From Podarcis tiliguerta (lineage: Eukaryota): a stretch of 64,000 bases of DNA. Location: assembly GCA_965153285.1 (NCBI GenBank), contig OZ229111.1. One strand, written 5' to 3'. The notes under the pieces were generated by a model. That model was not told the origin of the DNA and did not search any database. It was given only the letters and a program-made list of their open reading frames with translations. The position numbers were made by a program, and so were the translations under genes. Shown in pieces: positions 23,200 to 32,955 of the stretch (the first letter of the stretch is position 1; the number at the start of each line of letters is the position of its first letter).

Positions 23200-26100
23200 T
23201 GGAATTAGTTCTCTGAAGAATTCTGGCATGTCCTGCATTTGGGAATCCATGTTCTATTCAAGAGCAGACTTTTCAAATCAGCTTCTCTTACTAAGAATGT
23301 GACATAAGCGGAATCAGAAGATTGACTGACTGCTCTGAGTCATTGCTCCATCTTATATTTTGTTGAATCTGCTGATGTTGATTCTATTTCTCCTATTCCC
23401 TCATTAAGGCAAATTACTTTAAATAAAAAGCTCTGTTATCTACTTCTTTCTCAGGCCTTGGAATCGAAATTAGCTGCTTGTAGAAACTTTGCGAAGGACC
23501 AGGCATCACGGAAATCTTACATTTCAGGGAACATAAACAGCAGCATGATAAACAGCAATGGCATGAAGTTCTGTCATTCAGGACACACGACATTCTATGA
23601 CAAAGCGTAAGTTCTCGTTGTGCTCAATGTTTCAGGGATGTAGTTTGTATGCTAATAGACAAAAGCTTCCAACCTTTGGCCTATGGACATATTTCCTGTG
23701 GTTATAGGGTGCAACTTAAGGAAGCCCATCATCTACAGGCCTCTTGTTAAGCCAGAGAACAGGATACCTTGACCCTCTGTGGATACGAATCTGAGCTTTC
23801 ATGTTCTCCAATTTGGCACCTAAGCTGTAGCGCTAGGAAGCTGGTTTGGCAACCTTCAAGAAATTGTAGTGGGCCCTTTAGAGTGTTCTGTACAGTTGGG
23901 GAAAGGTGTTAATAGCAAATAGTGGAACATCACTCAAAATAAGCAAGGCATAATGAGGTCAGATTTGTTTGGCTTACTGTGACACTTCATGTTTTGGTTT
24001 CTTCCCAAGAGTTAAGTGAAGCTTGTTAAGTAAGAAACAACCTAGCCTTCACATGCCATCAGTGAAACTCAGGAGTATTCCATCATGGCTACCACGTATG
24101 TCTAACAGAATGTTGGTTAGTAATGGTGGTGAGCTGAACTCCCACCCTCATATTTGTTGGACCATTTGTCCCCTTGGGAAAATGAATATGTTTTCCATTA
24201 GATTTCAAGATGGACAGAATAAAATTTTGTGGGTAGTGGTGGGCTTGGATTCACTTTACTTCTTAGAATGAGGAGGCAGAGGGTTTAAGGTCAACAGGAC
24301 CTTTTTCCCCTGAGTGTTAACTGTCATGTCGTTGTGTATGTGCTGATTTAGGTAAGATCATGAAGGGGAAGGGTTGGGTTAACTCACCCATTCCTGCACA
24401 AAGTTGTCCTGATCCAAATTTTTATTTTTTAAACTATACGGCAGTGGTGGGAAATAGAATTTGGCTGGAAAGCCAGATCCTTAGCTCCCCCATCTGCAGT
24501 GGGACACTTCAAATCCCCGTGACGGGGTGAGCTCCCGTTGCTCGGTCCCTGCTTCTGCCAACCTAGCAGTTCAAAAGCACGTCAAAGTGCAAGTAGATAA
24601 ATAGGTACCGCTCCCGCAGGAAGGTAAATGGCATTTCCATGCGCTGCTCTGGTTCTCCAGAAGCGGCTTAGTCATGCTGGCCACATGACCCGGAAGCTGT
24701 ATGCCGGCTCCCTCGGCCAATAAAGCGAGATGAGCGCCGCAACCCCAGAGTCTGTCACGACTGGACCTAATGGCCAGGGGTCCCTTTCCCTATGATGGCT
24801 GTTGGGCATGGCTTAGGAGAAATGGCCTCACAGGCCATATTAAGGACTCCTGGCAGAACAAATTAGCCTGTGGGCTGGAGTTTTCTCAACCACTGCCATA
24901 GAGAATGTGAAGGAGTTTCTCTTCCTCTGTCATATCAAGTACAGGAAGACAAACTTGAGAATGTTTGAAATGATCCACGCTCTTGGTAATTTCATTATAG
25001 AACGCAAGGTAAGCCCCTTCCACTCTTTCCACTGAGAGAACTTTCTCAGAAATTTCTCCGGCTCTTTCCCAATTTGGGGCAAAAATTATTCTAGCCTTTT
25101 ATGCCCCTCCCCTGCAAATGGGCAAAAAGAGCTGTGCCAAAAATATCGGTCCAGCTCTAGTTAAGAGCTGGTTGTTTGAAAAGTTTCAGGAGCTATGCTG
25201 CCTTGAGCATTTGTGAGGTTTTAAATAGTGTATGGTCAACCATGTTCCTACTCTTTTTGCAGAGATTTGGAGCCACTGCAAAGAAAGCCCTGCCCTATGC
25301 CACCTTCCCCCATACTTTGGCTTGTGGAGGATCAGGGTCATCCTTAAATTATGCTGCACAGAGATTGTTTAGGTGAAATAAACAGGGAGCTAGGCAATGA
25401 AGTTGTTGCAAAACTGAAGTGTTATGTTCCATTTAGCCTGCACCAGTTGCAATCTTAACAGCTGCATTTCTACTACCTTTTTCAAAGGCAGCCCCTGACA
25501 GACCTCAAGACAGCAGTCTAACCTAGATGTGACTAAGTGTGATTAGGACAAAGTGTGGTACATCTTTCATGTGCAAAACTAAATCCACATAAGCAGCTGA
25601 GTCCTTCAGAAGTTTGAGAGGGGAAAGTGAAAGTAGAAGCTCTGCTGGCTGCCTTTGTGCCTGGCTTAATGATGTTTTCTGTATAGCTTACAGACCAAGC
25701 TGCATCTTTGCCATTTGCACAAAGGTGGGATAGGAAATTGCTTGTGAATACACTTAGTCTCAATGTGAATTGGGTGTGCCTTCAATGTGTGATTTGCTTC
25801 TCATGGTCATGAATCCAGAGGCAAGCCTCTTAAAACCCACGCTTGCTATCTTGAGCCATACTGTGAACAGTAAGCAGATTGTAAGGTAGGAAAGGGTCAC
25901 TTCATGCTGGGCTGCATGCTGGGCTGGTTTGTGTAATGCAACATGCAGTTGACCCGCTGGAAGTATTCATGGTTTGTGTATATTTTGTGTTATCCCTCTA
26001 TTGCTGCATCAGTCATCGTCTTGTGTCTCTTTTCAGGTCCTTTGTGCTTTTTATCTCCTTAAGCTCATCTTATATTGGCTTAGTTTTTGTTGCCCTCTCC

Positions 26101-32359: not shown

Positions 32360-32955
32360 GAGCACAGTAGGCAGGGAGTTCCAAAGTATAGGTGCTGCCA
32401 CACTAAAATACCCATTTCGTATAGCCAAATATGCTTACAAAGCATTTGGTGTATTTCTGGATAAGCAAAAAGCCCTGTTACCCCTGATGACAGCCCCAAA
32501 TGCAGATGTTTCTATTGAATATATAGAAAATACATGTGTACTTTGCCTTTTTGCAGTTAGCCTCCAAAATTATACAATTGTAAAATATAAAAAACATACC
32601 AAAATTGAAAACAAATGGAAGGAAACTATTCTGAAAGGAGACAGAAGTGTCTATAAAGGGACTTGTCCTTGCTGCATGCTTTTGGGAATTGAACTATTGA
32701 CCTTTAGTTTGCAGGATTAACAGTCCTTTGGATTTTCACAATTCAGTTTACACACTTGGCTAGCCCTTGCAAGACAAACAGTTCAGCACTGCATGTGTTT
32801 GTGACAAGTGCAGTTTTTATCTGTCAGTACTTCTTGTTGACCATTTTCTCTTACTGTTCCACAGGGCAGTCAATGGCTTTGACCAAGGCCCACCACCAGG
32901 TCTAGGAGGGTCCAGACCATCATCAGCACCAGGCATGCTCCCTCTGAGTGTATGA
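16026..32955 (+). CDS. NDEL1: NDEL1 (nudE neurodevelopment protein 1-like 1), spliced CDS of 8 coding exons, 1035 nt, 344 aa
   Basis: Exons translate to [37 protein letters not shown]...[16 protein letters not shown]...[13 protein letters not shown]. Exon sizes 86/154/149/137/174/92/152/91 chain in phase with GT-AG sites. PLSV C-terminus, Cys273 and adjacency to MYH10 distinguish it from NDE1. Confidence 0.97.
17000..17560 (-). mobile_element. Degenerate L2-like LINE remnant
   Basis: Motifs similar to the L2 3' end (GGGAGAGGATTCCACAAATGG...GAAAAAGCCC). Similar remnants lie near 7.8, 32.3, 38.9, 55.0 and 63.4 kb. Confidence 0.5.
18113..18366 (+). mobile_element. tRNA-derived squamate SINE (Squam3-like) with (CTC)n tail
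   Basis: A-box TGGTGTAGTGG and B-box-like GGTTCGCTTCC; 3 copies in the window. The family name is tentative. Confidence 0.8.
18904..19057 (+). CDS. NDEL1: NDEL1 coding exon 2
   Basis: ttacag|TTTTCAGGAG...TTAAAG|gtacaa; [51 protein letters not shown]. Confidence 0.96.
19985..20133 (+). CDS. NDEL1: NDEL1 coding exon 3
   Basis: tttcag|GAGAAG...AAGAG|gtaagg; [50 protein letters not shown]. Confidence 0.96.
20815..20951 (+). CDS. NDEL1: NDEL1 coding exon 4
   Basis: ctctag|AGCCACA...GCAAGAG|gtattg; [45 protein letters not shown]. Confidence 0.96.
22493..22666 (+). CDS. NDEL1: NDEL1 coding exon 5
   Basis: ttacag|ATTTAAGA...CCAAAAG|gtagaa; [58 protein letters not shown] (SP/TP CDK-site region). 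Confidence 0.96.
22813..22904 (+). CDS. NDEL1: NDEL1 coding exon 6
   Basis: ctgcag|CTCTTCCC...GTTGGG|gtaaga; [30 protein letters not shown]. Confidence 0.96.
23124..23199. repeat. Compound microsatellite (CT)14(TG)13(AG)11
   Basis: Read directly from the sequence. Confidence 0.97.
23455..23606 (+). CDS. NDEL1: NDEL1 coding exon 7
   Basis: tctcag|GCCTTG...GACAAAGC|gtaagt; [50 protein letters not shown]. Confidence 0.95.
24442..24895. mobile_element. Old hAT-like non-autonomous element hosting the Sauria SINE
   Basis: Imperfect TIR CAGTGGTGGGAAA / TTTTCTCAACCACTG; degenerate 8-bp flanks ctatacgg / ccatagag. Confidence 0.45.
24508..24791 (+). mobile_element. Sauria SINE (5'-truncated)
   Basis: Core GCCAACCTAGCAGTTCAAAAGCAC...GCAAGTAGATAAATAGGTACC and ...GGGGTCCCTTT end. 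Confidence 0.88.
24945..25008 (+). CDS. NDEL1: Candidate NDEL1 64-nt cassette exon
   Basis: tttctcttcctctgtcatatcaagtacag|GAAGAC...CGCAAG|gtaagc; open in the incoming phase ([21 protein letters not shown]). Confidence 0.35.
26884..27016 (+). CDS. NDEL1: Candidate NDEL1 133-nt alternative exon with in-frame stop
   Basis: ~60-nt polypyrimidine tract 26818-26880, then tag|CCCCTG...ATTGAG|gtaact; reads [32 protein letters not shown]. Confidence 0.45.
28343..28367 (+). CDS. NDEL1: Candidate NDEL1 25-nt cassette exon, FMGQ-isoform-like
   Basis: tccatctctcctttttggatag|GTCAGATTCCCTGCGCATTTCATGG|gtaatt; phase 0 reads VRFPAHFM(G), resembling my recollection of the mammalian NDEL1-FMGQ tail (VIFPTLFMGQ). 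Confidence 0.6.
29677..29806. repeat. Diverged ~68-bp tandem duplication
   Basis: TCATTCACATTAGGTTGGCTCCAATGC...AACAAGATTTCACCTG starting at 29677 and 29745. Confidence 0.9.
32865..32955 (+). CDS. NDEL1: NDEL1 terminal coding exon (PLSV isoform)
   Basis: ccacag|GGCAGTCAAT...[35 protein letters not shown]. Confidence 0.95.

What the first reader, a model, noticed from the sequence alone, without database searches (positions are those of the whole stretch)
24945..32905. Possible two-exon reconstruction of the NDEL1 'FMGQ' C-terminus
Seen: the 25-nt exon 28343-28367 encodes VRFPAHFM-G with its donor at the phase that reads G-Q into the last exon. It is out of that frame if joined directly to exon 23606, which gives [15 protein letters not shown] 64-nt candidate exon (24945-25008; pyrimidine tract plus CAG, donor AAG|GTAAGC) is stop-free and shifts the phase exactly as needed. 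The predicted 357-aa isoform ends [45 protein letters not shown] (stop 32903-32905). From memory, mammalian NDEL1 has PLSV and FMGQ isoforms, the latter ending QEKVIFPTLFMGQ from one short exon. Inference: this lizard uses a shifted acceptor plus a frame-compensating exon next to a hAT/SINE insertion, and lacks the immediate stop after GQ (GCAGTCA here). An 8-nt variant (25001-25008) plus the 25-nt exon would instead keep the PLSV frame ([16 protein letters not shown]).
Basis: partly seen in the sequence, partly recalled or inferred. Interest (0 to 1): 0.7.

Follow-up and report, generated by a model that had tools for sequence, protein, structure and literature searches.

The report
Lizard NDEL1 exon switched reading frame

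Summary
All coordinates and translations reproduce. The 25-nt exon 28343-28367 is the FMGQ-exon ortholog: unique best DNA match in the intron. The 64-nt compensating exon is not supported. Candidates as good occur in 4 of 26 control tiles (13 of 26 at a looser donor). A close relative has 7 substitutions in its 64 nt, more than the intron rate, and one removes the 8-nt variant's AG. No read or contig splices into it, a weak negative. Here it reads [14 protein letters not shown], 14 residues like the FMGQ tail. None of 28 squamate proteins fetched has the FMGQ tail, which turtles, birds, amphibians, fish and mammals keep. The old frame carries I>R and L>H changes and has lost its stop. Best reading: a squamate-wide 10-nt acceptor shift changed the frame of an ancient regulated exon, which likely still removes the PLSV tail. 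Direct inclusion was not seen in my own read lay. A third, sauropsid terminal exon (26884) was overlooked.

The parts
16026..22904 (+). NDEL1 coding exons 1-6 (16026-16111, 18904-19057, 19985-20133, 20815-20951, 22493-22666, 22813-22904)
   Evidence: tblastn and AG/GT border fitting to a squamate NDEL1; 305 of the first 314 residues identical to P0106
23455..23606 (+). Last common coding exon, ends ...TFYDK + GC (phase 2)
   Evidence: 98% identity to squamate NDEL1; 34 and 28 stranded RNA reads at 23508; a contig spliced from 23606 to the last exon at depth 401; 2 differences in 154 nt in the relative
24434..24903 (.). Old repeat with 15-nt inverted terminal arms and a high-copy element (24509-24791) nested inside; the hAT-MITE and SINE labels are recalled, not tested against a library
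   Evidence: 6 other copies of the right end at 74-81%; very large pile-up of reads; the left end found no other copy
24945..25008 (+).
   Evidence: chance rates and substitution excess; 7 substitutions in two contigs of a relative, which run unspliced through it, with 25000 G>A removing the 8-nt acceptor
26884..27016 (+). Alternative terminal or cassette exon, tail [33 protein letters not shown] (stop 26981-26983; 347 aa); possible donor after 27016, AATAAA at 27268
   Evidence: same tail class in 30 of 206 fetched proteins, from squamates, turtles and birds; acceptor 95% pyrimidine; no splice into it seen
28343..28367 (+). 25-nt cassette exon, ortholog of the 35-nt FMGQ exon, predicted to read S-D-S-L-R-I-S-W when joined directly
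   Evidence: orthology; same frame in five squamates; 35 nt in mouse
28438..28550 (+). Downstream QKI-type (ACTAAT, 28438) and RBFOX-type (TGCATG, 28545) motifs; motif definitions recalled; binding untested
   Evidence: none in the 250 nt after the 64-nt candidate; an NDEL1 exon is named among human QKI/RBFOX co-targets
32865..32955 (+). Last exon, coding part: PLSV frame (stop 32953-32955), direct-inclusion frame GSQWL* (stop 32880-32882), third frame [12 protein letters not shown] (stop 32903-32905)

Best explanation
The 25-nt exon at 28343-28367 is the ortholog of the vertebrate 35-nt NDEL1 FMGQ cassette exon; it likely lost its first 10 nt in a squamate ancestor and is likely spliced directly between exon 23455-23606 and the last exon, which would give a 328-aa NDEL1 ending [14 protein letters not shown]. 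Skipping gives the 344-aa PLSV form (shown in a relative's RNA). Inclusion still shifts the frame of the last exon (25 nt = +1 instead of 35 nt = +2) and meets a stop 15 nt into it. The product is therefore as long as the FMGQ form, has its stop in the last exon (predicted to escape NMD), and lacks the proline/serine PLSV tail. The inferred job is a tissue-regulated switch that removes that tail with its phosphorylation and binding sites, the new 14 residues being largely incidental. The inferred origin is loss of the old AG, with the former Lys codon before Val (AAG, now TAG) taking over as acceptor. The 64-nt segment is likely intron and is not needed.
For: Orthology. Direct-join models in Eublepharis, Anolis carolinensis, A. 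sagrei, Sceloporus and Pituophis: 5 proteins end with the 14-residue tail and 2 more start the same way. 0 of 28 squamate proteins fetched have the FMGQ tail, which 50 non-squamate proteins have. Decay of the old frame: I>R and L>H at columns that are I/V/M/T and L/F in 50 of 50. The squamate tails read S-Q or N-Q in the last exon, which implies a C where the FMGQ stop needs an A, so that stop is lost in all 5 species and here (inference from the code). Lengths 328/344/347 match the squamate models. QKI- and RBFOX-type motifs follow this exon, not the 64-nt candidate. The mammalian PLSV tail carries S332/S336, phosphorylated by GSK3b/DYRK2.
Against: My read lay listed no joint into or out of the 25-nt exon in 4 of 4 runs of a relative: about 30 reads per raw run on the upstream exon, a 3-read threshold, unknown tissue, last exon outside the stretch laid, 689 loose ends not shown. 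One run had about 51 isolated letters in that bin, compatible with two included reads but not shown. The direct-join evidence is automated annotation; that such models rest on RNA junctions is my recall. No model from this species or a recognisably close one was among those listed (15 of 72 and 15 of 43 members shown for the two big clusters). In mammals the FMGQ exon is under purifying selection and peptide-supported, so its sequence does matter there, which weakens 'only truncation matters'. No outgroup DNA was available to test the deletion mechanism. One difference (R against H) is silent in the old frame and not in the new one (a single site).
Confidence: 0.8

Rival explanations
1. One reading: a lineage-specific 64-nt exon (24945-25008) is co-included with the 25-nt exon and restores the FMGQ frame, giving a 357-aa protein.
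For: Donor matches 8 of 9 consensus letters; it is the only such candidate in 23607-28342; stop-free; length 3n+1. None of the 7 listed substitutions in the relative makes a stop, and none is listed at its AG or GT (304 rows not shown). Its last codons read E-R-K, like the R/Q-E-K of other vertebrates.
Against: Equal candidates in 4 of 26 to 13 of 26 tiles. 7 substitutions in 64 nt against 68 in 1768 and 18 in 411 for the surrounding intron (p about 0.01-0.02, post hoc) and 2 in 154 for the true exon (p 0.003); four of five affected codons change residue and E-R-K becomes K-C-K. Two contigs run unspliced through it and 0 raw reads lie on it in 2 of 2 runs; this is weak, because the relative's copy is 89% alike and the cut-off was 92%. 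0 of 206 proteins carry its peptide. Other squamates are modelled without it.
Confidence: 0.04
2. The 25-nt exon is a decaying relic, included only at noise level; squamates have in effect lost the FMGQ isoform and use the 26884 exon and PLSV.
For: No joint listed in 4 of 4 runs. Donor 6 of 9. The SDSL peptide varies at 3 of 8 positions among few species, and its last five residues vary at sites that are silent in the PLSV frame.
Against: Both borders and most residues are shared from gecko to snake (a split of roughly 190-200 million years, recalled), whereas the intron already differs by about 4% between close relatives. It is modelled in five species. Regulatory-type motifs are present.
Confidence: 0.12
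3. A squamate-wide microexon of 3n+1 nt elsewhere in the intron, missed by annotation, restores the FMGQ frame.
For: Very short exons are often missed by aligners (recalled); about ten stop-free 3n+1 candidates with weak signals exist.
Against: None has strong signals or encodes an R/Q-E-K-like start. The old frame shows radical changes and has lost its stop. The models show a direct join.
Confidence: 0.04

Closest known systems
NDEL1-FMGQ isoform / 35-nt Ndel1 cassette exon (PMC2631193, passages; PMC10835012, passage)
   Same: Same gene, same intron, orthologous exon; frame-shifting inclusion ends the protein early in the last exon; 14-residue tail and 328-aa product; PLSV tail removed.
   Different: 25 nt instead of 35; other reading frame; unrelated peptide ([14 protein letters not shown] against G[QR]EKVIFPTL[FV]MGQ); another stop codon is used.
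Squamate NDEL1 328-aa database isoforms (XP_008102476, XP_060620456, XP_042305075, XP_070793550, XP_054833468)
   Same: Same exon, frame and length; 10 to 12 of 14 tail residues identical to the window's prediction.
   Different: Automated models only; I found no paper that remarks on the frame change.
Ancient alternative-splicing dual-coding regions (bioRxiv 10.64898/2026.05.28.727796; passages and section 25)
   Same: NDEL1 is a worked example there: a frame-changing exon and two frames in the last exon.
   Different: The preprint calls the NDEL1 case conserved across jawed vertebrates and under selection in both frames; squamates appear to be an exception. Its main text has 0 hits for squamat, lizard or snake; its supplements could not be seen and may list lineage losses.

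Membership tests
NDEL1 gene | Sequence identity and exon order matching vertebrate NDEL1 with the NUDE_C domain (PF04880) | tested here: met
   305 of 314 identical to a squamate NDEL1; the exon is single-copy in the genome
FMGQ cassette exon (ortholog) | Lies between the DK exon and the last exon and is homologous to the VIFPTLFM-G coding stretch, with the same donor | tested here: met
   unique best DNA match, rank 1 of 566 GT-flanked sites; tested against codon spellings of peptides, not against real outgroup DNA
FMGQ isoform | 35-nt exon length | tested here: not met
   no AG 35 nt upstream of the donor; 25 nt here; 35 nt in mouse
FMGQ isoform | Tail [QR]EKVIFPTL[FV]MGQ followed at once by a stop | tested here: not met
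   other frame; R and H at conserved hydrophobic columns; no stop after GQ
FMGQ isoform | Inclusion truncates NDEL1 to about 328 aa with the stop in the last exon | tested here: met
   (computed for the direct join)
FMGQ isoform | Regulated inclusion in RNA (MBNL1; QKI/RBFOX) | tested here: inconclusive
   no joint listed at low depth; motifs present
Frame-compensating exon pair | Second exon spliced in together with the first | tested here: inconclusive
   0 joints or reads in 4 of 4 runs of a relative, with limited sensitivity
Frame-compensating exon pair | Second exon conserved above the intron background | tested here: not met
   7 substitutions in 64 nt, above the intron rate
hAT MITE / SINE | Match to a curated repeat family, target-site duplication | not testable with these tools
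   only inverted arms and other copies were seen; labels are recalled

The most novel reading that the evidence does not exclude
An alternative C-terminus kept from fish to mammals, under purifying selection and needed for rescue in mouse red-cell maturation, was replaced in one step in the squamate ancestor by an unrelated peptide of the same length, while the exon and its regulation were kept. Squamates are then a natural experiment on whether the switch works by removing the PLSV tail or by adding the FMGQ peptide.
Probability: 0.5. Interest if true: 0.55.

Novelty: new variant of a known kind. Interest (0 to 1): 0.33.

Why it matters
NDEL1 regulates dynein with LIS1. Its two tails are a published example of an ancient dual-coding region, and only the inclusion form partly rescues Ndel1-depleted mouse erythroid cells (review passage). 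Why the inclusion form works is open: new peptide or loss of the phosphorylated PLSV tail. A whole reptile order that apparently kept the exon but changed its peptide offers a ready swap test. It also warns that an exon judged 'out of frame' against the human isoform needs no compensating exon. The effect is limited to one isoform of one gene, and the isoform already sits unremarked in databases.

Tried and rejected
(1) Window-specific deletion or assembly error at the acceptor: considered because a relative's contig over 28237-28669 is 14 letters longer (positions not shown); rejected as the main cause because five other squamates are modelled with the same short exon. (2) Hairpin hiding the 64-nt acceptor (arms 24914-24926 / 24943-24955): z = -0.07, 92 of 200 shuffles fold as well; dropped. 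(3) Retrocopy that might preserve junctions: only the locus itself matched. (4) Search for short transcript-derived proteins with the SDSL tail: no candidate; the near-length search returned only 6 known cluster representatives. (5) A second cluster look-up listed the same members for the three clusters already seen, so no tuatara, crocodilian inclusion form or close relative was seen. (6) Peptide-only scan did not single out the exon (rank 4). (7) Rfam: 0 matches in 23000-34500. (8) Run search: no RNA holder listed on record; 4 of 24 listed runs were laid, once, on 23300-32250, so joints into the last exon could show only as loose ends. (9) The primary Mbnl1/Ndel1 paper (Cheng 2014) is not held; I rely on three reviews' passages, which differ in wording (skipping against inclusion). 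(10) KATMAP supplements: 12 of 18 files searched; the exon's coordinates among the co-targets were not found, so which NDEL1 exon is meant is not shown. (11) Earlier scan findings: none.
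Full report
Observation. The window holds NDEL1 on the + strand, coding exons from 16026 to 32955; the first 314 residues match a squamate NDEL1 at 305 positions. Every translation in the finding reproduces: skipping gives 344 aa (PLSV), the 25-nt exon alone 328 aa ([14 protein letters not shown]), 64+25 gives 357 aa, and 8+25 keeps the PLSV frame.

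Is 28343-28367 the FMGQ exon? Yes. I took the FMGQ-type tails from fetched proteins (10 distinct 8-mers) and asked, for each of about 9,230 positions of the intron 23607-32864, how few DNA mismatches separate it from any codon spelling of them. 28343 is alone at 3; six positions follow at 5. Among the 566 positions followed by GT at the right phase it ranks first by peptide score, 18.4 against 10.8. Without the donor constraint the peptide score put it 4th of 9,233. The mouse exon is 35 nt (PMC10835012, passage); here the AG lies 25 nt before the donor and there is none at 35.

What do relatives do? A search with the upstream exon gave 102 proteins, and cluster look-ups brought the total to 206. 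Fifty carry the FMGQ-type tail: teleosts, coelacanth, frogs, caecilians, turtles, birds, marsupial and placental mammals. Of the 28 that I sorted as squamate by their source names, none has it: 14 end in a PCSLL...AAAL tail, 7 begin the tail with SDSL, 5 are PLSV, 2 other. The SDSL proteins come from Eublepharis, Anolis carolinensis, A. sagrei, Sceloporus and Pituophis; five are the 14-residue form, such as ASDSLHISWGSQRL and TSDSLQMSWGSQWL. The sample is partial (15 of 72 and 15 of 43 members listed for the two large clusters), and these are automated models; that such isoform models need RNA junction support is my recall.

The old frame has decayed. In it the window reads V-R-F-P-A-H-F-M. 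Column 2 is I, V, M or T and column 6 is L or F in 50 of 50 FMGQ-type proteins, so R and H are radical. The FMGQ stop overlaps the Val-Asn codons of the PLSV frame and needs an A at Val's third position. The S-Q or N-Q of all five squamate tails, and the window's GTC, show a C there (inference). Loss of that stop throughout the group is expected if the frame was abandoned long ago, and not if a second exon restored it.

The 64-nt candidate. Its donor is strong (8 of 9) and it is the only candidate at that level in 23607-28342. But equally good stop-free 3n+1 candidates occur in 4 of 26 window tiles and 9% of 200 shuffles, or 13 of 26 and 54% at 7 of 9; its acceptor has 65% pyrimidine against 80-95% for the four others scored. 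I laid 4 of 24 listed runs, from a relative with about 96% intron identity, on 23300-32250. Two contig sets from different studies cross the candidate unspliced and share 7 substitutions in its 64 nt, against 68 in 1768 and 18 in 411 nearby (p 0.011 and 0.022, post hoc) and 2 in 154 in the true exon (p 0.003). Four of five affected codons change residue; none makes a stop; 25000 G>A removes the AG of the 8-nt variant. Two raw RNA runs had 34 and 28 reads on the upstream exon and none at 24958-25005. That negative is weak because the relative's copy is 89% alike and the cut-off was 92%. No fetched protein (0 of 206) has its peptide words. It lies about 40 nt beyond an old repeat with inverted ends and matched nothing else in the genome.

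Limits of my RNA test. One contig at depth 401 runs from 23606 straight into the last exon, so PLSV is shown. No joint was listed for the 25-nt exon or the 26884 exon either. Depth was low, tissue unknown, the threshold 3 reads, the last exon lay outside the stretch, and 689 loose ends were not shown. One run has about 51 isolated letters in the exon's bin, compatible with two included reads but not evidence. Direct inclusion in this species is therefore inferred, not shown.

Mechanism. Shown: orthology, 25-nt length, frame and length of each product, PLSV splicing in a relative. Inferred: (a) the shift predates the gecko-snake split, since turtles and birds keep the old form; tuatara was not seen; (b) the new TAG acceptor sits where the Lys codon before Val lay, suggesting loss of the old AG and capture of that codon; no outgroup DNA was available; (c) inclusion is regulated, since a QKI-type motif (28438) and an RBFOX-type motif (28545) follow the exon, an NDEL1 exon is named among 20 human QKI/RBFOX co-targets (PMC13751310, section 13), and MBNL1 promotes the mouse exon; (d) the product escapes NMD because the stop is in the last exon (standard rule); (e) its effect is removal of the PLSV tail, which in mammals has predicted SH3 and 14-3-3 sites (PMC2631193, passages) and the DYRK2/GSK3b sites S336/S332 (PMC6927744, passages). 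The equal length (35+5 = 25+15 nt) follows from a TGA formed by the Phe-Asp codons of the PLSV frame and may be coincidence. Against (e): the FMGQ exon is under purifying selection and peptide-supported in a 2026 preprint (passages and section 25), so in other vertebrates the peptide matters, and squamates may have lost that part of the function.

Known or new. The FMGQ isoform and its regulation are known, and the squamate isoform is already in databases. I found no paper noting the frame change: NDEL1+FMGQ gave 1 paper, NDEL1+squamate+isoform 0, NDEL1+35 nt 2 held, 1 listed, unrelated by its listing, NDEL1+lizard 9, none relevant by listing. The library lacks most subscription papers, and the preprint's supplements were closed. 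Verdict: the two-exon reconstruction is not supported (about 4%); the real feature is a squamate variant of a known cassette exon (80%), of modest interest, with a clear swap experiment attached.

Noticed in passing
window 26884-27016 (+): Third NDEL1 ending, [12 protein letters not shown]...SAAAAAL*, in 30 of 206 fetched proteins, all from squamates, turtles or birds; looks like a sauropsid-specific terminal exon with a poly-Ala end. Its stop lies 33 nt before a possible donor, so it could also act as a cassette. One relative's contig covers it unspliced at depth 9.9, above its flanks.
   Followed up: partly
   Followed up: partly
window 28669-29881: One contig of the relative skips these 1211 nt with non-splice ends (AT..AA): likely an insertion here or a deletion there. 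It includes a 67-nt tandem duplication at 29678-29806.
   Followed up: no
window 28237-28669: The relative's contig is 14 letters longer over this stretch, which includes the 25-nt exon; the positions were not displayed.
   Followed up: no
window 24509-24791: High-copy element with thousands of RNA reads on both strands from other copies, nested in an older element with inverted ends.
   Followed up: partly
window 1950-2846 (+): 299-codon open frame whose start resembles a LINE reverse transcriptase (recalled motif, not searched).
   Followed up: no
P0067, P0070, P0165, P0174, P0180, P0191 (frogs): Frog models continue the FMGQ exon into a further tail (FMVD[CY]YR...), another lineage-specific reuse of this intron.
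   Followed up: no
window 23604-23606: Squamate proteins have Ala (Thr in two species' models) after DK where turtles, birds and mammals have Gly, and TFYDK instead of SFFDK: further squamate changes beside the junction.
   Followed up: no
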